In this document: one piece after another, positions 5,631 to 39,539 of the stretch
Layout of the letters: every line of letters starts with the position of its first letter
How positions within the stretch are numbered: position 1 is the first letter of the stretch
Assembly (NCBI GenBank): GCA_023659975.1
Contig: JAGXOI010000001.1
Location: forward strand, 1 to 48,268
Reading direction: 5' to 3'
Source: Candidatus Aenigmarchaeota archaeon LH_S4
GTDB taxonomy: Archaea > Aenigmatarchaeota > Aenigmatarchaeia > QMZS01
Length of the DNA: 48,268 nucleotides
The notes under the pieces: model-generated
Database searches by the model: none
Told to the model about the DNA's origin: nothing
The model's input: the letters and a program-made list of their open reading frames with translations, nothing else
Position numbers and translations under genes: made by a program

Positions 5631-5909
5631 AATATTATTTTTTAAATAAAAGAAAAGAATAAAATTTTTTATGAAAGAAACTATCGGATTTATTTTTTTA
5701 TTGGGATAATTCTTATTTTATCCTCATTGGTTTCTAATTCCGAAGGAAAAGCTAAATTCGCATTTGGTGGTTTTATTGGTCCAATCCCTTTTGGATTTGC
5801 AAATTCTCCTAAGATGCTGAAAATTGTGGTTATAATTTCTGTTATTGCCTTAATTGGTTTTCTCTTACTTCTGTATCGGTAGAATTATTGTTTTGACACT
5901 CTCCCCTCA

Positions 5910-7052
5910 CTAAAATCGGGAGATTCTGAGATCGCACTCTGAACCACAAAAGCTTGCTGACTTCTTTATATCCTCTGCCTCAGTTACGGGCTGTGCCAAA
6001 ACAGCCCCTGATTTAGACATATAGCCTAAACCTCGTTTGCAGATATTTATACTTCCATTTCTATCTGCATTTTCTTCTTTTCTACATTCAGGACACCAAA
6101 ATAATCCTTGAGTTTTTCTTATTCCTTCATTTCCACACTTCCAACACAGTTGAGAAGTATAAGATTCATTTACTTTTACTACTGAAATCCCTTCCCAGTT
6201 TGCTTTGTATTCTATAAATTGTGATAGCTGATAGCTTGGCATAGAGTTCAACTTTCTGTTAAACTTCTTTCCTTTATAGTTTTTGTTATTCTTCTTTCTT
6301 ATTCCATTCTTTCTAATTCCTTTCAAATCACCAATTACTATTGCTGAATTTGTGTTTTTAGCCCAACCCACAACTCTCTTTGCTATTTTGTGCATTTGGT
6401 CTTTTGTTATTCTTTTTTCTTTGCTGTTCTTTATCTTTTTGTAGAAACCCCTGATTTTCTTCCCTGCTAACTTCCCTCTCAAGTGGAAGTAGTGTCCTCT
6501 TGTTTCTCTGATATCCTTCCCATAGAACTTGGTTTTCTTGTTGGAATACTGCACCACGGACGCAATATTTTTTACTCCAAGATCTATAGATAAGGTATCA
6601 GTATAATGAGTCTTTAATTTCTGCTCTTTCTGAACAGTTATGTTTAAGAACCAGTCTTTTTTAGTTTTGATTAATTTTGATTCAGATAATTCATAATCTA
6701 ATAAGTTTTGTTGTTTGTTTGAAAAATTAACCGCAACCCAGATTGATTTGTTATAAACAGGAACTCTTACCCAATATTTAGATAGTTTATTATTTGTTTT
6801 TTTGACCTTAATTAAGTCTTTTCTGATTATCAAAGGTTGCTCTTTTTTAGGATTTGTTCTCTTTGCTAATCTCTCTGCCTGTTGTTTCGTCGCAGAATAG
6901 AGTTTTATATCTTTGTATAATGGAAGAAAATCTAATCCTTTAGAATCTAATTGCAAGAAATCCTGAAAATTAGAATATTCTTTCTCAAGTTTTTCTCTCT
7001 TAATATTAGTTGGTCTAATAATCTTAGTTTGAATTGTTTTTTGTAGTTTCAT
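5910..7052 (-). CDS. tnpB: TnpB (OrfB) RNA-guided nuclease-like transposon protein
   Basis: 380 aa from MKLQKTIQTK. Shows SIDLGVKN (RuvC-I), YTSQLCWKCG...CPEC zinc ribbon and NADRNGSINI (RuvC-III). Paralog at 34229-35365. Confidence 0.85.
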   Translation of the reverse strand: MKLQKTIQTKIIRPTNIKREKLEKEYSNFQDFLQLDSKGLDFLPLYKDIKLYSATKQQAERLAKRTNPKKEQPLIIRKDLIKVKKTNNKLSKYWVRVPVYNKSIWVAVNFSNKQQNLLDYELSESKLIKTKKDWFLNITVQKEQKLKTHYTDTLSIDLGVKNIASVVQYSNKKTKFYGKDIRETRGHYFHLRGKLAGKKIRGFYKKIKNSKEKRITKDQMHKIAKRVVGWAKNTNSAIVIGDLKGIRKNGIRKKNNKNYKGKKFNRKLNSMPSYQLSQFIEYKANWEGISVVKVNESYTSQLCWKCGNEGIRKTQGLFWCPECRKEENADRNGSINICKRGLGYMSKSGAVLAQPVTEAEDIKKSASFCGSECDLRISRF

Positions 7053-7143
7053 AATAATCATATCTTTTACATCTTGGACAACACACAGGTTTTTTAACTC
7101 TTGGTTTCCATTCATAACCACATCTTTTACACTTAATCTTCAT
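7024..7143 (-). CDS. 39-aa zinc-ribbon mini-protein overlapping the tnpB start
   Basis: Manual translation gives MKIKCKRCGYEWKPRVKKPVCCPRCKRYDYYETTKNNSN, with CxxC...CPxC. It lies between the IS left end and tnpB. It is too short for the ORF track. Confidence 0.4.
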   Translation of the reverse strand: MKIKCKRCGYEWKPRVKKPVCCPRCKRYDYYETTKNNSN

Positions 7144-7190
7144 AATAATATTAATAAAAAAACTTTAGTATCCCAATTCATCTACCCTCA

Positions 7191-7622
7191 CTAAAGTTGG
7201 TAGCTTTCTTGGGGCTTTATCTGTAACTTCTGTAATTCAAGTACCTGTTTCTGGATTTCATTCTGTAGTTCTTCCTTCCTCTTTGACACCTGCGAAATTA
7301 CAGATTTAAAATCTTCAGATTTTTTTTCCAAATACTTTTTAACTTCTTCTTTATTCATTTTTACAAAAATTTTTCTGCCAACGTTGACCAAAAAAATATT
7401 ATTGCTTGTAACCTCTGAAGGTACAAAAATTCCTGGACCTAATTGAGAAAAACCCGGGCCTTCCTGGATCTTATCTATCGAATCTTTAAGAGTTAGCGAC
7501 TCATTTAATTCAGAATTTAATAAATTAAATTGGTTAGAAACCTGCTCAAATTCTTTGTTTAGCGATTCAACTTGCGAATATTTCTCTTGTGCTTTCTTCT
7601 TTAATTCTTCTTTCTCAACCAT
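7191..7622 (-). CDS. pfdA: Prefoldin alpha subunit (3' end supplied by the IS left end)
   Basis: Coiled coil, double beta hairpin (IFVPSE...FLVNVGRKIFVKM), coiled coil. The last ~10 codons and the stop lie inside the IS (7191-7222). Confidence 0.75.
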   Translation of the reverse strand: MVEKEELKKKAQEKYSQVESLNKEFEQVSNQFNLLNSELNESLTLKDSIDKIQEGPGFSQLGPGIFVPSEVTSNNIFLVNVGRKIFVKMNKEEVKKYLEKKSEDFKSVISQVSKRKEELQNEIQKQVLELQKLQIKPQESYQL

Positions 7623-34189: not shown

Positions 34190-34228
34190 TTATTGCAATT
34201 GGTGCTTTAGTATTGACACTCTCCACGA

Positions 34229-35365
34229 TTAAAATCGGGAGATTCTGAGATCGCACTCTGAACCACAAAAGCTTGCTGACTTCTTTATGTCCTCTGCCTC
34301 AGTTACGGGCTGTGCCAAAACAGCCCCTAGTTTAGACATATAGCCTAAACCTCGTTTGCAGATATTTATACTCCCATTTCTATCTGCATTTTCTTCTTCT
34401 TTACATTCAGGACACCAGAATAAACCTTGAGTTTTTCTAACTCCTTCATTTCCACACTTCCAACACAGTTGAGAAGTATAAGCTTCATTTACTTTGATTA
34501 CTGAAATTCCCTCCCAGTTCGCTTTGTATTCTATAAATTGAGATAGTTGATAGTTTGGCATAGAGTTCAACTTTCTGTTAAACTTCTTTCCTTTATAGTT
34601 TTTGTTATTCTTCTTTCTTGCTCCATTCTTTCTAATTCCTTTCAAATCACCAATTACTATTGCCGAATTTGTGTTTTTAGCCCAATCTATAATATCCTTT
34701 GCTGTCTTATGTACTTGATCTTTGGTTATTCTTTTTTCTTTATTGTTCTTTATTTTTTTGTAGAAACCTCTGATTTTCTTCCTTGCTAACTTCCCTCTCA
34801 AGTGGAAGTAGTGTCCTCTTGTTTCTCTGATATCCTTCCCATAGAACTTGGTTTTCTTGTTGGAATACTGCACCACGGACGCAATATTTTTTACTCCAAG
34901 ATCTATAGATAAGGTATCAGTATAATTTGTTTTTAATTCCTGTTCTTTTTGAACAGTTATATTTAAGAACCAGTCTTTTTTACCTTTGATTAACTTTGAT
35001 TCAGATGATTCATAATTCAATAAATCTTGTTGTTTGTTAGAAAAATTGATTGCAACCCAAATTGATTTATTATAAACAGGAACTCTTACCCAATATTTAG
35101 ATAGCTTGTTATCTGTTTTCTTAACTTTAATACAATCCTTCCTGATTATCAAAGGTTGTTCTTTTTTAGGTTTTGTTCTTTTTGCTAATCTTTCTACCTG
35201 TTGTTTTGTTGCTGAATAGAGTTTTATATCTTTGTATAATGGAAGAAAATCTACATCCTGCATTTTTAGGATACCCTGAAAATTAGAATATTCTCTCTCA
35301 AGTTTTTCTCTCTTAATATTGGTTGGTCTAATAATCTTGGTTTGAATTGTTTTTTGTAGTTTCAT
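34229..35365 (-). CDS. tnpB: TnpB (OrfB), copy 2
   Basis: 378 aa from MKLQKTIQTK. Near-identical to 5910-7052, with the same RuvC and zinc-ribbon motifs. Confidence 0.85.
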   Translation of the reverse strand: MKLQKTIQTKIIRPTNIKREKLEREYSNFQGILKMQDVDFLPLYKDIKLYSATKQQVERLAKRTKPKKEQPLIIRKDCIKVKKTDNKLSKYWVRVPVYNKSIWVAINFSNKQQDLLNYESSESKLIKGKKDWFLNITVQKEQELKTNYTDTLSIDLGVKNIASVVQYSNKKTKFYGKDIRETRGHYFHLRGKLARKKIRGFYKKIKNNKEKRITKDQVHKTAKDIIDWAKNTNSAIVIGDLKGIRKNGARKKNNKNYKGKKFNRKLNSMPNYQLSQFIEYKANWEGISVIKVNEAYTSQLCWKCGNEGVRKTQGLFWCPECKEEENADRNGSINICKRGLGYMSKLGAVLAQPVTEAEDIKKSASFCGSECDLRISRF

Positions 35366-35477
35366 AATTCTCAAGTAGTTTTCTGACAATATCCTCAAAT
35401 GTCTCTCCTTTCTTTCCCAATTTCTTTAACATATTATAGGTTGATTTCTTTAATTGTATAGTTGTTATAGTCACCAT
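35328..35477 (-). CDS. 49-aa antitoxin-like mini-protein overlapping the tnpB start
   Basis: Manual translation gives MVTITTIQLKKSTYNMLKKLGKKGETFEDIVRKLLENYETTKNNSNQDY. The pattern I.L...T...L..L...GE(S/T)F.D.I..LL resembles small archaeal putative antitoxins. Confidence 0.4.
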   Translation of the reverse strand: MVTITTIQLKKSTYNMLKKLGKKGETFEDIVRKLLENYETTKNNSNQDY

Positions 35478-35566
35478 AAATATATACAGAAAACTTTAAA
35501 TACCCTCCTTTTCAACCCAATTCATCTACCCTCACTAAAGTCGGTAGCTTTCTTGGGGATTATATT

Positions 35567-35734
35567 GTAATTTTTATAATTATCGGAATTGGAGTTTATT
35601 TTTATTCTCAAAATTGGGTTCCTCCTGAATCTGGTGAATCACCTGAAACCTCTCCTGAAACTTTTTCTTATGGAAAACCTCTTCCCCCCTCTCTCAGAAT
35701 GAAAGATATAATAAAAAGTTTTTATATAGTTTAA
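35567..35734 (+). pseudogene. 3' portion of a small membrane-protein ORF split by IS copy 2 (5' portion ends at 34212)
   Basis: Joining 34212 to 35567 gives an in-frame read ...KNKFIAIGALV|VIFIIIGIGVYFYSQNWVPPESGE..., a continuous TM helix. No canonical start codon was found upstream. Confidence 0.4.
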
Positions 35735-35756: not shown

Positions 35757-38700
35757 TTACTTCACTCCTTTGATATATCCTTTAAACCAATTTAGCCACC
35801 TGTTGTAAATTTCCTTTGAATCCAAAGCACCTGATTCTTTTCTAACTTCTTCAGAGAAAGTATGAAACATAGAATTTGAGAGGATAACATTACTTGCTTC
35901 CATGATACTAGGTTTCTTTGTTTCAACTGCAGTTTTTACAATTGTATCAAGAATATCTGCTCTTAGCTTGATATTACTCCAGACAGCATCCCAATCTCCT
36001 CTCCATTCTTTAACATTTTTTGCAATAGAATTTATTATTTCACTCTCACCAGCTAAAAGAGTTGGGGTTGGCTCTAGCTCATCTTTTTTAGCATTATATT
36101 CAAGCAAATTAACAAAACCTTTTTCTTCTGCAGGATCTTTTTTCCAGTGTTTCCTAATTTCTGTAAATTCAACTGTTCTTCTAAAAGAATGTAGTCCATC
36201 AGCACTTTTTAAGGTATTGTTTATAAGTATCAGGTCTGTTGCTTTGAAACTTGTAGGGGGGACCCCCAAATCATTTACAACTCTATCAAATAAACCATAA
36301 GCACTTTCTCCATGTATAGTTCCTGCAACAACATTAGCCATTGCACCAATCCTCATTGCCTCATAAAGAGCCAAAGCTTCCTTGCTTCTTACTTCACCAA
36401 TTATCAGACAAGAATCTCCTAACCTTAAGGATACTCTCAAAACTTCTTCGGCAGGCAGTTCAGTTTCAACCATTGTAATCACTGATCTTGATTTTAATCT
36501 TGTTATATTATATCCAATTTCCCTAAATTTTTTTAAGGGTAATTCAAGAGTATTATGAGCCAAGATATTTTCACACACAAAATTCTCATTCTCAGGAACA
36601 GAAAAATCATAAACATATATCTCTGATTTTACTTTTTTTACACTAACAACTCTATCCCAAAAAATATCTGAATATGCTAATTGTTTTAGAAAAGTATATA
36701 GTTTATTTTTATCTGGTATTTTAGGGATTAATTTTTTCAAATATTCTCTTCCAATATTATTTCTCCTCTTTATATAATCATTTTTATTAAAATCTTTACA
36801 TACCCGGGCCATTTCTTTTTTTAGTTCTATAGACAAGGGTATTATATCTGCAGAGTCATTTGTAGATATTTTGGAGCAGAGCTTCTTAAGTTTTTTTCTT
36901 TTCTTTTCTATAAGTATTCCAATTTTCTCCCTAAAATTTTTCTGGGATTTTAAGCTGGAAATATCTGCATTAAATGTTCCGTCTTTTCTTCGGTTATTGC
37001 TTTTCCTGAGAATTATATCGTAATCCAGAAGTAAGGTTTGCAAGTCATATAATAGTTTTTCTGAAGTTAGAGGGATTACAATTTCTTTTTCACTCACACA
37101 CCCGTCTCCGGAGAATATTCCCCTCAAAACAAAAGATATCTGCTCTTTAGATAAATTATATATCCATTCAGGGACTTCTTTGGTATAAGCATTACCCTTT
37201 AAATTTAATACATCCTGCATAACTATTTTGAGTATATCCGAAGAGATTATTGAGGTAAAAGTATCAGAATGCATCTTAACCCTAAGATCAAGCTTTTTTG
37301 CCACGCTTCTTACAACTCTTCTTAATTCTTCTTCAACCACTGAAATTAGAACACTCCGCTTATCATAGCACCCATCTGCTATCCATAGTCCAATAAAGGT
37401 TAAAAAATCTTCATTCAGGGATATTTTTGTTGGTATGGGTTGGCCCCCACTCCTGGGTTTAATTTTGATATTTTTGAAATCAAAACTTTTTTTGTTTAAT
37501 TTTACAAAAACTTTCACAGGCAAAATACCTTTTCTTTTCCAATAGGAGCATAGTTTTTCAGAGTAACCCAACTTCCTCGAGACTTTCTTTATTTCTGTCC
37601 CCTGCTCTTTTATTAACCCCTGGATTTCTTTTCCCTTCAGATAGAAATTTTTTAATTTTTCTAAGTGTTCCAACAGATTTACTGAGTCTTTCCTTCTGTT
37701 GTTTACCCTAAATATTCTTGGAACTACAATAAAATTACCTTCTTCTAAGTCTCTAACCCTAATTTCTTCCAAAATTCTTTTGTTACCTATAGAAAAAAGG
37801 GAGTGGTCACCAGTTACTTTTATCTTCCGACCAGTTGATGTTAAAATTTCATAAATGTCTTTATTTGTCTTGTGTCTGATAAAAGAACTCACTTTTTTAA
37901 ATTCTATTTTACCTTCTTTATTAATTGAGCAAATTTCTATTTCATCTTTTATATCTGTTGCTCTGACAATATTTCTTTCATTCTCTATTCCTGGTTTATA
38001 GTTCTTAATTAGCTCATCTATCAAATTACCAATCTTTGTCTTCTCAATTTTCCTGTTTCTTTTAATCAGGATTATAGAATCTCCTGTGACACTATCCTCA
38101 ACCGAAATAATCCTTTTATTTTTCATTATTTGTGAGATTAGAGCACCTAATAAACTTGTTTTTCCTGAACTTCTTGTTCCACCAACCAACATAGATCTTC
38201 CACCATCTATTATAAACCAAAGCAGTCCACCAGCAAGAGGATTTAGCATTTTTTGGGAGATAAAGAGAGGGAAGGTCCAAGGTTTTTCCCTGTGCCTTCT
38301 CAAAGCAAAACCAAGACCTTCCGGGGATAAAGTCTGCATTATTGCACAAACTCTCGCCCTCCCACCAGGAACAGAAATTTCAGTATCCAAAACAGGGTTT
38401 GCTTCATCCAAAGGTCTTCCCGAACTTAACCTCAATCTTGTTGCTAACAATTCTGCATCCTCTTTTGTTTGAGTTATGTTTGTCTGACATTCACCATATT
38501 TCCCATGATAAAGGTAAGTTGGTGCAGAGCTTGGGGGTGAGTTGACATAGACATCCTGAACATTATCATCAGACAAAAGTAATTCCAGAATCCCGATTCC
38601 AGCAGTATATCTAACAAGAATATTTGAAATAATTTTTAGTTTTTCTTCTGGGATATTAGATGAACCTGAAAGATCTCTTAACATATCAAGACCAATATTA

Positions 38701-39539
38701 TAAAAACTTTTTCTCACTTCTTTTGAAGCAAATTCTTCTCTTTCCAGGGGTCTATGCCTTGCCATATATCTCTTTGCCTTGTCAAGTAGCTCATATTCTT
38801 TTTCTTCTAAACCAAATTCTAGCGGAATAATATGATACAAAGTTCTTATTTCATTTGGTATTTTATAAATCTCAACTTTTGCATCCTGGATTTGATAATT
38901 GTCAATTAGTTCTGCTTTTTCTGGGGGGGTTGCCTGATATTTTGTGTAAGTGAAATTTGGTCTGACAGAGGGAATAAAAAACTGCCTGTAAACTGACCGG
39001 TCTCCAACTTTATATCCGGGCAAAAATCCAAGACTTTTCTTTATTAATGTTGTTTCCTCTAATAACTCTTTTAGGGGAATTAGTGAATTGTTAAGATAAT
39101 GTTCATAACATTCCTTGCAGATTCCTTTTGTCCTCTCACCCAAAACCTTTGTGTGTCTTATTCTTCTTACTAGTAGAACGTACGCACCTACAGGGTCAGT
39201 CTTTAATTTTCCCAGAATTGTATTTTGCAAAAAATCCATTCTTTTAGAAACACACCGGTCACACTTTTCTATAACCAGATTTTTTTTGGAAAACAATTTT
39301 AGATCCCTTGTTATCTTTTCATAAAGTTTGGCAATTTCAAGCAGCATCTGTGTCTGCTCAAAGTTGTATTCATACTCTCTCTCTTTTGATAAAACAATTG
39401 ATTTGGCATCTTTAACAGCAATTAAATAGTTTATAATCTCCGACATACATTCAGGAAAATCCTCTACTGAAGAGCCGTATATACAGTTTAAGCAATCTAC
39501 TTTTAAAACACCATCTTTATAAGTGTATTTTCCAGGCAT
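35757..39539 (-). CDS. Type IV pilus/archaellum-type (GspE/VirB11/FlaI family) secretion ATPase containing an intein
   Basis: Walker A GGTRSSGKTS. The Asp-box RIISVED | TLEL is split by the intein. The C-terminal part has GEVRSKEA and the His-box region. Confidence 0.8.
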   Translation of the reverse strand: MPGKYTYKDGVLKVDCLNCIYGSSVEDFPECMSEIINYLIAVKDAKSIVLSKEREYEYNFEQTQMLLEIAKLYEKITRDLKLFSKKNLVIEKCDRCVSKRMDFLQNTILGKLKTDPVGAYVLLVRRIRHTKVLGERTKGICKECYEHYLNNSLIPLKELLEETTLIKKSLGFLPGYKVGDRSVYRQFFIPSVRPNFTYTKYQATPPEKAELIDNYQIQDAKVEIYKIPNEIRTLYHIIPLEFGLEEKEYELLDKAKRYMARHRPLEREEFASKEVRKSFYNIGLDMLRDLSGSSNIPEEKLKIISNILVRYTAGIGILELLLSDDNVQDVYVNSPPSSAPTYLYHGKYGECQTNITQTKEDAELLATRLRLSSGRPLDEANPVLDTEISVPGGRARVCAIMQTLSPEGLGFALRRHREKPWTFPLFISQKMLNPLAGGLLWFIIDGGRSMLVGGTRSSGKTSLLGALISQIMKNKRIISVEDSVTGDSIILIKRNRKIEKTKIGNLIDELIKNYKPGIENERNIVRATDIKDEIEICSINKEGKIEFKKVSSFIRHKTNKDIYEILTSTGRKIKVTGDHSLFSIGNKRILEEIRVRDLEEGNFIVVPRIFRVNNRRKDSVNLLEHLEKLKNFYLKGKEIQGLIKEQGTEIKKVSRKLGYSEKLCSYWKRKGILPVKVFVKLNKKSFDFKNIKIKPRSGGQPIPTKISLNEDFLTFIGLWIADGCYDKRSVLISVVEEELRRVVRSVAKKLDLRVKMHSDTFTSIISSDILKIVMQDVLNLKGNAYTKEVPEWIYNLSKEQISFVLRGIFSGDGCVSEKEIVIPLTSEKLLYDLQTLLLDYDIILRKSNNRRKDGTFNADISSLKSQKNFREKIGILIEKKRKKLKKLCSKISTNDSADIIPLSIELKKEMARVCKDFNKNDYIKRRNNIGREYLKKLIPKIPDKNKLYTFLKQLAYSDIFWDRVVSVKKVKSEIYVYDFSVPENENFVCENILAHNTLELPLKKFREIGYNITRLKSRSVITMVETELPAEEVLRVSLRLGDSCLIIGEVRSKEALALYEAMRIGAMANVVAGTIHGESAYGLFDRVVNDLGVPPTSFKATDLILINNTLKSADGLHSFRRTVEFTEIRKHWKKDPAEEKGFVNLLEYNAKKDELEPTPTLLAGESEIINSIAKNVKEWRGDWDAVWSNIKLRADILDTIVKTAVETKKPSIMEASNVILSNSMFHTFSEEVRKESGALDSKEIYNRWLNWFKGYIKGVK
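36552..38093 (-). other. 514-aa intein with LAGLIDADG homing endonuclease domain
   Basis: It starts SVTGDSIIL (Ser1), has block B VTGDHS, LAGLIDADG motifs FIGLWIADGCY and LRGIFSGDGCV, and ends ...ENILAHN followed by +1 Thr. Removal restores ISVED-TLEL. Confidence 0.85.

What the first reader, a model, noticed from the sequence alone, without database searches (positions are those of the whole stretch)
35366..35515. Swapped mini-gene cassette between the IS left end and tnpB in two otherwise near-identical elements
The two IS copies are collinear through the left-end hairpin (...GATGAATTGGG) and again from TATGAAACTACAAAAAAC (the tnpB start). The segment between differs completely. Copy 1 (7053-7171) encodes a 39-aa CxxC...CPxC zinc-ribbon peptide. 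Copy 2 (35366-35515) encodes a 49-aa peptide with an antitoxin-like pattern (TIQLKKSTYNMLKKLGKKGETFEDIVRKLLE). Both mini-ORFs read ~30 nt into tnpB in another frame and share the tail YETTKNNSN, which suggests translational coupling. Accessory small genes in the position normally occupied by tnpA are not a described feature of these elements as far as I know.
Basis: partly seen in the sequence, partly recalled or inferred. Interest (0 to 1): 0.6.

Follow-up and report, generated by a model that had tools for sequence, protein, structure and literature searches.

The report
Swappable mini-genes ahead of tnpB
Two copies of one jumping gene in a tiny DPANN archaeon carry different 40-50-residue genes (a zinc-ribbon protein or a ribbon-helix-helix protein) exactly where the transposase gene normally sits. 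The ribbon-helix-helix kind was recently shown in bacteria to switch such elements off, while the zinc-ribbon kind appears undescribed.

Summary
Two IS200/IS605-type elements on the minus strand (5893-7222 and 34213-35566) share the left end, tnpB and the right end. They differ in the roughly 100-130 bases before tnpB.

Both mini-ORFs are real genes. One is a 39-aa CxxC...CPxC zinc ribbon. The other is a 49-aa ribbon-helix-helix (RHH) protein that passes the Pfam DUF7557 cut-off and resembles VapB/CopG. Homologues of each sit in the same position before tnpB genes only 35-49% identical in other DPANN genomes.

A same-genus relative carries a Y1 tnpA in exactly this slot, starting at the same ATG as the RHH gene. 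On a TnpB tree the slot content changes at least 7 times in 30 rows.

A TATA-like box 23-31 bases upstream suggests a leaderless first cistron.

Elsewhere, both protein families sit before, or fused to, DNA-handling genes such as toxins, DNA methylases and ParA. The most likely role is therefore a small DNA-binding repressor of the element's own promoter.

RHH "Arc" genes in IS605 elements (bioRxiv 2026) and archaeal RHH-TnpB pairs (PNAS 2023) are already described. I found no paper on the zinc-ribbon alternative or on the exchangeable slot. An earlier scan note reports a zinc-ribbon gene in an IS607 element on other DNA.

The parts
5893..7222 (-). IS copy 1 (1330 bp): left end, zinc-ribbon mini-gene, tnpB, right end. 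It is preceded by TTAC (7223-7226) and ends in ...TCAA.
Evidence: Alignment of copies, own-genome BLAST and hairpin folds.
7172..7222 (-). Left end of copy 1, with an imperfect subterminal hairpin (CCCAA...TTGGG outer stem).
   Evidence: Conserved in at least 12 places of the genome. DNA fold -5.7 kcal/mol, z -1.6.
7163..7171 (-). Degraded TATA-like box of copy 1. A 12-base deletion relative to the C21 copy removes the upstream half.
   Evidence: Comparison with C21, the G360 copies and copy 2.
7024..7143 (-). Mini-gene 1: a 39-aa zinc-ribbon protein (CxxC-x3-W-x9-CPxC, 'ZnR2' subtype) that overlaps tnpB by 29 bases.
   Evidence: ORF list. Pfam Zn_ribbon_PF0610 at 22.5 bits, below the cut-off of 26. 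Alignments A2/A8 show invariant C5, C8, W12, C22, P23 and C25. AF2 model pLDDT 76.
5910..7052 (-). tnpB copy 1 (380 aa). RuvC-I D is present (IDLG), RuvC-II E is replaced by G (IGDL), RuvC-III is NADRN and the C4 zinc finger is present.
   Evidence: Pfam Cas12f1-like_TNB 6.8e-22, PDB matches to Cas12f/TnpB and motif columns.
5893..6040 (-). Right end plus the tnpB 3' part that is retained in the gene-less mini elements. This is the presumed omega-RNA scaffold region and right-end hairpin.
   Evidence: The gene-less mini elements (MITEs) at C13, C37 and C22 keep only this part plus the left end. Hairpin fold. No Rfam family matched, so the RNA is inferred, not shown.
34213..35566 (-). IS copy 2 (1354 bp): left end, RHH mini-gene, tnpB, right end. 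It is preceded by TTAC (35567-35570).
35516..35566 (-). Left end of copy 2 with the subterminal hairpin.
35495..35502 (-). TATA-like box (TATTTAAA), 17 bases before the mini-gene ATG. This is the presumed IS promoter.
   Evidence: The same box at the same spacing precedes tnpA in the relative L032, the mini elements, and the zinc-ribbon genes of distant IS relatives L042/L043. The promoter function is inferred.
35328..35477 (-). Mini-gene 2: a 49-aa ribbon-helix-helix protein (DUF7557 / VapB- and CopG-like) that overlaps tnpB by 38 bases.
   Evidence: Pfam DUF7557 5.3e-7 (29.4 bits, cut-off 25) and VAPB_antitox 1.1e-5. 205 homologues. AF2 strand-helix-helix model, pLDDT 87.
34229..35365 (-). 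tnpB copy 2 (378 aa), 91% identical to copy 1.
   Evidence: dN/dS 0.16 between the two copies.

Best explanation
The window holds two non-autonomous copies of one IS200/IS605-type (IS608-like) element of an Aenigmarchaeota (DPANN) archaeon. In both, the Y1 transposase gene has been replaced, ORF for ORF, by a very small gene. Copy 1 carries a four-cysteine zinc-ribbon protein. Copy 2 carries a ribbon-helix-helix protein.

The proposed order of parts is: left-end hairpin, TATA-like box, leaderless mini-gene, overlapping tnpB, omega-RNA / right end.

I propose that both mini-proteins are small DNA-binding regulators that sit on the element's own promoter. They would hold down transcription of the mini-gene-tnpB-omegaRNA unit, as shown experimentally for the RHH protein 'Arc' of bacterial IS605 elements. 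Because the promoter is shared, they probably also act on sister copies and on the gene-less mini elements. The zinc ribbon would then be a functional stand-in for the RHH protein.

The slot is refilled repeatedly by recombination between related elements.

Shown here:
- the anatomy of the elements;
- that the ORFs belong to conserved protein families;
- that they recur before divergent tnpB genes;
- that tnpA occupies the same slot in a relative;
- that slot content switches many times on the TnpB tree.

Inferred, not shown: the promoter, the leaderless start, DNA binding and repression.
For: Slot identity:
- A same-genus relative (L032) has tnpA beginning at the very ATG used by the RHH gene and ending 4 bases from the tnpB ATG.

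Real genes:
- The RHH ORF passes the Pfam DUF7557 cut-off, has 205 homologues of 36-74 aa, and gives a strand-helix-helix model with pLDDT 87.
- The zinc ribbon has invariant C, C, W, C, P, C.

Recurrence:
- RHH or zinc-ribbon genes stand directly before tnpB genes 27-49% identical to ours. These are in G179, G296, G301 and G320, in two other tnpB types of the same genome (C6, C16), and in metagenome contigs.

Selection:
- For a zinc-ribbon/tnpB pair at 78% TnpB identity, the mini-gene has the same dS as tnpB (0.63 versus 0.61) and a lower dN/dS (0.12 versus 0.20).

Exchange:
- At least 7 label changes occur on a 30-row TnpB tree.
- Two starred sister pairs have different slot content, at 91% and 74% TnpB identity.
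- Haplotypes in the tnpB 5' region are mosaic.

Promoter:
- A TATA-like hexamer starts 23-31 bases before the mini-gene start in most DPANN elements, including ones only 35% identical in TnpB.

DNA-regulator character:
- RHH relatives are named CopG-family antitoxins.
- Zinc-ribbon relatives lie directly upstream of DNA methyltransferase genes in 10 of 24 DPANN loci.
- They lie upstream of ParA-like ATPases in 9 of 39 metagenome loci.
- They occur fused to DNA methylases, HNH and Vsr-like nucleases.

Precedent:
- Arc binds and represses the IS605 promoter (doi 10.64898/2026.09.24.754181).
Against: - No binding site was identified, and no expression data exist for this uncultured organism.
- The two families are not specific to tnpB. 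Only 3 of 30 (zinc ribbon) and about 6 of 30 (RHH) of the best DPANN matches have tnpB downstream, so the genes could be passengers.
- One copy in a related genome (L155) has lost the zinc-ribbon start codon and three conserved residues. Copy 1 of the window shares with it a deletion that destroys the TATA-like box.
- Between near-identical copies there are too few substitutions to show selection: 2-4 non-synonymous against 0-2 synonymous.
- Fold matches for both models are weak, with Foldseek E > 0.1.
- Arc was tested only in bacteria, with a different gene order (arc and tnpA divergent from tnpB).
Confidence: 0.55

Rival explanations
1. The mini-proteins act on the TnpB protein rather than on DNA, as antitoxin-like inhibitors. 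In this view they bind TnpB or its RNP and block guide/target engagement, so that the pair behaves like a toxin-antitoxin or addiction module.
For: Altae-Tran et al. 2023 (PMC10691335) proposed exactly this for archaeal RHH/MazE-TnpB pairs, from AlphaFold cofolds. The RHH here hits VAPB_antitox. The gene order, small gene first and overlapping the nuclease gene, is that of type II toxin-antitoxin pairs. All DPANN tnpB genes linked to a mini-gene have a rearranged RuvC-II site.
Against: Two unrelated folds (RHH and zinc ribbon) and two zinc-ribbon subtypes replace each other in front of nearly identical TnpBs. That is hard to reconcile with a specific protein-protein interface. The described clade has His in RuvC-III, no zinc finger and is non-mobile, and none of this holds here. 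No fusions of the zinc ribbon to TnpB were found among 55 longer relatives.
Confidence: 0.2
2. The mini-genes are passenger or filler DNA. In this view, small genes common in DPANN genomes were captured by illegitimate recombination when tnpA was lost. They persist because the slot provides a promoter and a ribosome path into tnpB, and their own products have no role in the element.
For: Both families are mostly found outside IS elements. One copy is decaying. Close copies show no clear selection signal.
Against: Only two protein types (RHH and zinc ribbon) fill the slot in independent lineages, rather than a random sample of small genes. The replacement is precise, from start codon to tnpB start. 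One zinc-ribbon/tnpB pair shows co-divergence and purifying selection.
Confidence: 0.17
3. The mini-ORF is fused to TnpB by a programmed frameshift or by transcriptional slippage at the A-run (ACAAAAAAC) in the overlap, giving TnpB an extra N-terminal domain.
For: A run of six A lies in the overlap in the window copies. Loss of one A would join the frames.
Against: The tnpB frame is +1, not -1, relative to the mini-ORF, so the classical A-AAA-AAC -1 slip leads to the third frame. The overlap length and frame vary among relatives (4, 23, 25, 29, 31, 38 bases, or a gap). One relative has AAAAGAC instead. No zinc-ribbon-TnpB fusion proteins were found.
Confidence: 0.03

Closest known systems
Arc (ribbon-helix-helix) accessory repressor of bacterial IS605-family transposons (Moon, Zedaveinyte, Wiegand, Sternberg, bioRxiv 2026, doi 10.64898/2026.09.24.754181; first noted in doi 10.1101/2023.11.20.567912)
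   Same: A protein of at most about 50 aa with a predicted RHH fold, encoded inside an IS200/IS605-type element next to tnpB. Many of its relatives sit beside toxin-antitoxin and other mobile-element genes. It is a small, often unannotated gene. Its proposed role is repression of the element's own promoter.
   Different: Here the host is a DPANN archaeon, and the promoter would be a TATA-box type with a leaderless transcript. The gene is co-directional with tnpB and replaces tnpA, instead of lying with tnpA divergently from tnpB. Its best Pfam families are DUF7557/VAPB_antitox, not Arc/CopG models. Membership of their Arc clade was not tested, because no reference sequence was available. A zinc-ribbon gene can take its place.
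RHH/MazE-TnpB pairs of archaea (branch RIIIr-4; Altae-Tran et al. 2023, PMC10691335)
   Same: Archaeal, with a small RHH-type gene directly upstream of tnpB. The TnpB has a non-canonical catalytic site.
   Different: That branch has His for the RuvC-III Asp, lacks the C4 zinc finger, and is described as immobile and as a toxin-antitoxin pair. Here RuvC-III Asp and the zinc finger are kept and the change is Glu to Gly in RuvC-II (as in their RIIr-5 description). The element is also multi-copy, with ends, mini derivatives and a tnpA-bearing relative.
IS608 / ISDra2-type IS200/IS605 elements (tnpA + tnpB)
   Same: TTAC target 5' of the left end, TCAA at the right end, imperfect subterminal hairpins, tnpB with the guide-RNA region at its 3' end, and gene-less mini derivatives. 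A relative has tnpA directly before tnpB.
   Different: In the window copies tnpA is absent and its place is taken by a 39- or 49-aa gene. The TnpB has Gly at the RuvC-II position.
Controller (C) proteins and N-terminal regulatory domains of restriction-modification methyltransferases; small centromere-binding/regulatory partners of ParA ATPases (comparison from general knowledge)
   Same: Relatives of the zinc-ribbon mini-protein stand directly upstream of, or fused to, DNA methyltransferase genes, and upstream of ParA-like ATPase genes. That is the position of small autoregulators in those systems.
   Different: Known C proteins are helix-turn-helix proteins and ParA partners are RHH or HTH proteins. 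A zinc ribbon in this role has not been tested, so the analogy is positional only.

Membership tests
IS200/IS605 family insertion sequence (IS608-like) | TnpB with a RuvC-like fold and a zinc finger (OrfB_IS605 / TNB domain) | tested here: met
   Pfam PF07282 6.8e-22 and 8.2e-22. PDB sequence matches to Cas12f and TnpB.
IS200/IS605 family insertion sequence (IS608-like) | Imperfect subterminal hairpins at both ends, no terminal inverted repeats, and insertion 3' of a fixed tetranucleotide | tested here: met
   Hairpins at the left and right ends. TTAC precedes the left end in all copies read, and the element ends in TCAA.
IS200/IS605 family insertion sequence (IS608-like) | Y1 (HUH) transposase TnpA encoded in the element or supplied in trans | tested here: met
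   Absent from both window copies. Present in the same slot in relative L032. A solo Y1_Tnp gene lies at C5:20139-20507 of the same genome (1.6e-35).
IS200/IS605 family insertion sequence (IS608-like) | Multiple copies and gene-less derivatives in one genome | tested here: met
   Three tnpB copies, at least 12 left ends and three mini elements made of left end plus right end. Many contigs end in these repeats.
Arc-like RHH repressors of IS605 elements | Ribbon-helix-helix fold | tested here: met
   AF2 model: extended N-terminus, helix 11-20, helix 27-45, pLDDT 87. Pfam DUF7557 above its cut-off. Best Foldseek rows are SeqA-N, ParD2 and PrpA RHH domains, but with E > 0.1, so the fold assignment rests mainly on the profile match and topology.
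Arc-like RHH repressors of IS605 elements | Encoded inside the IS boundaries next to tnpB/tnpA | tested here: met
   The gene lies between the left-end hairpin and tnpB in copy 2 and in two copies of a related genome.
Arc-like RHH repressors of IS605 elements | Binds the element's promoter and represses it | not testable with these tools
   Needs ChIP/EMSA and reporter assays. Only a conserved TATA-like box was found.
Arc-like RHH repressors of IS605 elements | Sequence membership of the published Arc clade | not tested
   No reference sequence of that clade was available as a tool result. The Pfam Arc/CopG models did not appear among the hits.
RHH/MazE-TnpB (RIIIr-4) of Altae-Tran et al. 2023 | RuvC-III Asp replaced by His | tested here: not met
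   The RuvC-III motif is NADRN in both copies, and NAD is kept across the clade.
RHH/MazE-TnpB (RIIIr-4) of Altae-Tran et al. 2023 | Loss of the C4 zinc finger | tested here: not met
   CxxC...CxxC is present. The TNB domain matches over its full length.
RHH/MazE-TnpB (RIIIr-4) of Altae-Tran et al. 2023 | Immobile locus | tested here: not met
   Multi-copy, with intact ends and mini derivatives.
Type II toxin-antitoxin VapB (PF02697) with a PIN toxin | Passes the family cut-off and is paired with a PIN-domain gene | tested here: not met
   26.6 bits against a cut-off of 27.9. The downstream gene is tnpB, not a PIN gene.
PF0610-type rubredoxin-like zinc ribbon (PF23470) | Passes the family cut-off; four metal-binding Cys | tested here: inconclusive
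   22.5 bits against a cut-off of 26. Four Cys are invariant in 22 relatives. The model matches many generic zinc ribbons, including PDB 2gmg (PF0610), at E about 0.8.

The most novel reading that the evidence does not exclude
DPANN IS200/IS605 elements have an exchangeable 'regulator slot'. Copies that have lost the transposase instead encode a trans-acting repressor, which is either an RHH protein or a zinc-ribbon protein of a kind not yet described as an IS regulator. This repressor would act on a promoter shared by autonomous copies, tnpB-only copies and gene-less guide-RNA mini elements. Repressor-bearing copies would then set the activity of the whole IS family in the cell. The same zinc-ribbon family would act as a general controller in front of archaeal DNA methyltransferase and ParA genes.
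Probability: 0.3. Interest if true: 0.65.

Novelty: new variant of a known kind. Interest (0 to 1): 0.5.

Why it matters
TnpB elements are the ancestors of Cas12 and are used as compact genome editors. How their expression is held in check is only now being worked out, with Arc described in 2026.

This locus shows three things:
- The accessory-regulator idea extends to archaea with the smallest known genomes.
- The regulator can take the place of the transposase gene itself.
- An unrelated zinc-ribbon protein of about 40 residues can fill the same slot.

If the zinc ribbon is a DNA-binding controller, it would also annotate a widespread family of unannotated archaeal micro-proteins. These sit in front of DNA methyltransferase and ParA genes. 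The locus also gives a natural pair of near-identical elements in which the two regulators can be compared.

Tried and rejected
- Mis-defined boundary: rejected. The left-end hairpin and TTAC lie upstream of the cassette in every copy.
- Remnant of tnpA: rejected. Neither peptide resembles the TnpA of the relative L032, and each has its own family.
- Frameshift fusion at the A-run: rejected. The frame is wrong for a -1 slip, the overlap is variable, and no fused forms were found.
- dN/dS between the near-identical copies: uninformative, with 2-6 substitutions.
- Rfam search of copy 1: no family, so the omega RNA is not confirmed.
- PDB sequence searches with both profiles: nothing significant.
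- Foldseek for both models: only weak, generic rows.
The contexts of the database homologues could therefore be read only through the search for related loci and the genome search.
The scan that ran used only the 'YYATCPRC' subtype, not the window's own subtype.
- The single-protein genome-contig scan found only three close relatives.
- The sigma-70 promoter scanner was not used, because the organism is an archaeon.

Full report
**Observation**

On the minus strand the window holds two copies of one element, at 5893-7222 and 34213-35566. Aligned in element orientation, they are near-identical from the TTAC target through the left-end hairpin. Identity resumes three bases before the tnpB ATG and runs to the right end (...TCAA). 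The stretch between (7053-7171 versus 35366-35515) cannot be aligned, except for a short island that is the remnant of a TATA-like box.

One is a 39-aa CxxC...CPxC peptide at 7024-7143(-). The other is a 49-aa peptide at 35328-35477(-). They run 29 and 38 bases into tnpB in another frame. The shared tail is the tnpB 5' sequence read in that frame, so it is no independent evidence of coding.

**Organism and element**

The window is contig C15 of a 779-kb, 72%-complete genome in 103 contigs. Close relatives are records named Candidatus Aenigmarchaeota. Genome G+C is 31%.

The element behaves as an IS608-like IS200/IS605 member:
- TTAC lies 5' of the left end and TCAA at the right end.
- Both ends carry imperfect hairpins.
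- tnpB has a TNB domain.
- There are three tnpB copies and at least 12 left ends.
- Three gene-less elements of about 350 bases keep only the left end, the promoter region and the last ~130 bases of tnpB plus the right end. This agrees with earlier scan notes on this genome.
- Many contigs end in these repeats.
- A solo Y1 tnpA lies on contig C5.
- The two window tnpB copies are 91% identical, with dN/dS 0.16.
- RuvC-I Asp and RuvC-III (NADRN) are kept, and the RuvC-II Glu is Gly.

**The slot is the tnpA slot**

A same-genus genome (L032) carries the same left end and tnpB (87% aa) with a 129-aa Y1 tnpA in between. That tnpA begins at the very ATG used by the RHH gene of copy 2. The gene-less elements also have an ATGG at this point. 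The tnpA ends 4 bases from the tnpB ATG. The RHH gene is therefore an ORF-for-ORF replacement of tnpA. The zinc-ribbon cassette diverges about 15 bases further upstream, just after the TATA-like box.

**Are the mini-ORFs genes?**

The RHH peptide:
- It passes Pfam's cut-off for DUF7557 and nearly passes VAPB_antitox.
- Its profile finds 205 proteins of 36-74 aa, several named CopG-family antitoxin.
- It folds as extended strand, helix, helix with pLDDT 87.
- Foldseek rows (SeqA-N, ParD2, PrpA RHH) are weak.

The zinc-ribbon peptide:
- It has invariant C, C, W, C, P, C across 22 relatives.
- It gives only a generic zinc-ribbon model.

The decisive evidence is position. Homologues of one or the other stand directly before tnpB genes 27-49% identical to ours:
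- RHH in G179 and G301;
- zinc ribbon in G320 and G296;
- two other tnpB types of this same genome (zinc ribbon on C6, RHH on C16, both with ATGA overlaps);
- metagenome contigs.

For one zinc-ribbon/tnpB pair at 78% TnpB identity, the mini-gene has the same dS as tnpB (0.63 versus 0.61) and dN/dS 0.12 against 0.20. This indicates co-inheritance under purifying selection.

Two points count against constant selection. Close copies differ by too few substitutions to judge. One copy in genome G360 (L155) has lost the start codon and three conserved residues of the zinc ribbon. Window copy 1 shares with that copy a 12-base deletion that destroys the TATA-like box.

**Exchange**

On a maximum-likelihood tree of 30 full-length TnpBs, the labels none / RHH / zinc-ribbon type 1 / zinc-ribbon type 2 need at least 7 changes. 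Two strongly supported sister pairs differ in slot content. One pair is window copy 1 and copy 2 (91% identity). The other is L042 and L043 (74% identity), which carry two different zinc-ribbon subtypes.

The L042/L043 alignment shows the same plan as the window. The hairpin and TATTTAAA are shared, the cassette is not, and identity resumes at the tnpB start. Genome G360 also holds both RHH and zinc-ribbon versions. Variable sites in the tnpB 5' region form mosaics that do not follow cassette type. I read this as recombination between copies. No formal test was run.

**Promoter**

A TATA-like hexamer starts 23-31 bases before the mini-gene start in most DPANN elements examined. No Shine-Dalgarno motif precedes the mini-gene or tnpB. 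From general knowledge of archaeal promoters, where the TATA box is centred near -26, this fits a leaderless mini-gene mRNA with tnpB as a coupled second cistron. This is inference only.

**What the two families do elsewhere**

Neither family is specific to tnpB.

RHH:
- Of the 30 best RHH matches in 371 DPANN genomes, five have tnpB downstream. The C16 copy adds a sixth, though its tnpB carries one in-frame stop.

Zinc ribbon, window subtype:
- Of the 30 best matches, three have tnpB downstream, all from this IS clade.
- Of 24 others, ten lie directly upstream of DNA methyltransferase genes.

Zinc ribbon, second subtype:
- It has at least 259 metagenomic relatives.
- Of the best 80, 68 are free-standing small genes and 12 are N-terminal fusions.
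- Of 39 sizeable downstream genes, nine are ParA/MinD-like and three are tnpB.

Longer relatives are fusions to DNA methylases, HNH and Vsr-like nucleases, NuoE and anaerobic ribonucleotide reductase. None is a fusion to TnpB.

**Mechanism**

The most economical reading is that both mini-proteins are small DNA-binding regulators borrowed from the common pool of mobile-element controllers. Placed as the first cistron behind the element's promoter, they would repress it. This is what Moon et al. showed for the RHH protein Arc of bacterial IS605 elements by ChIP-seq and reporter assays.

The RHH version keeps the tnpA-type promoter, which is also present in the gene-less elements. Its product could therefore act in trans on the whole family.

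The main rival is direct inhibition of TnpB, the toxin-antitoxin model of Altae-Tran et al.. The interchangeability of two unrelated folds before near-identical TnpBs weakens this rival, and none of that branch's defining features holds here. A passenger-gene reading and a frameshift-fusion reading are less likely, for the reasons given under rival explanations.

**Comparison and novelty**

These features are already published:
- RHH accessory genes in IS605-family elements;
- archaeal RHH/MazE-TnpB pairs.

I found no paper on a zinc-ribbon gene in this slot, or on repeated exchange of the slot among tnpA, RHH and zinc-ribbon genes. It has no sequence likeness to ours by the word look-up.

I file the finding as a new variant of a known kind.

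**Limits**

- All function is inferred.
- The genomes are incomplete MAGs, so copy numbers are lower bounds.
- Kin genomes are not independent samples.

Noticed in passing
G000 contigs C13:10234-10600, C37:8793-9160, C22:3701-4076 (loci L004/L011, L005/L014, L006/L020): Gene-less mini elements of about 350 bases. They keep the left end, the same TATA-like box and 'ATGG' as the RHH/tnpA versions, a ~120-base piece of unknown origin, and the last ~130 bases of tnpB plus the right end. They look like promoter-driven guide-RNA carriers.
   Followed up: partly
window 5910-7052 and 34229-35365 (-); relatives L031-L060, C6: Every DPANN tnpB linked to a mini-gene has Gly in place of the RuvC-II catalytic Glu (IGDL-type motif), while most tnpB genes without a mini-gene keep Glu. 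The two metagenome zinc-ribbon-linked TnpBs (L102, L132) keep Glu. The link is confounded with phylogeny and was not tested further.
   Followed up: partly
window 7191-7622 (-): A prefoldin alpha-type gene (Pfam Prefoldin 2.1e-11) ends with a stop codon inside the left-end hairpin of IS copy 1. The insertion therefore rewrote its last codons, and read-through from this gene could drive copy 1, whose own TATA-like box is damaged.
   Followed up: no
L155 = G360:C11:78673-80804: A copy of the zinc-ribbon version in a related genome is decaying. The start ATG is now ATA, and Trp, Pro and the Pro of CPxC are replaced. It shares the promoter deletion seen in window copy 1.
   Followed up: yes
G000:C16:10995-11609 (L010) and G000:C48:2-106: A second RHH subtype (about 39 aa, highly conserved in metagenomes) precedes a different tnpB type behind the same kind of left end. 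That tnpB has one in-frame TGA. A further RHH remnant lies at the start of contig C48 without a tnpB.
   Followed up: partly
L040 and L061 (genome G204): Two IS copies of a related tnpB carry a conserved 53-71-aa ORF with no family match. It overlaps the tnpB start by 25 bases, and coding status is unknown.
   Followed up: no
L156-L182 (DPANN genomes): Small zinc-ribbon genes of the window's subtype, often with a 15-40-residue N-terminal extension, lie directly upstream of DNA methyltransferase genes in 10 of 24 loci. They may be an unannotated family of restriction-modification controller-like micro-proteins.
   Followed up: partly
window 35757-39539 (-): A 1260-aa secretion-type ATPase gene lies beside IS copy 2. 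Its ORF translation shows a large insert with LAGLIDADG-like motifs that looks like an intein. I judged this by eye only.
   Followed up: no
L050 (G217:C8): A 560-aa TnpB-like gene is preceded by a 167-aa ORF whose N-terminus looks Cas4/RecB-like by eye. Not checked.
   Followed up: no
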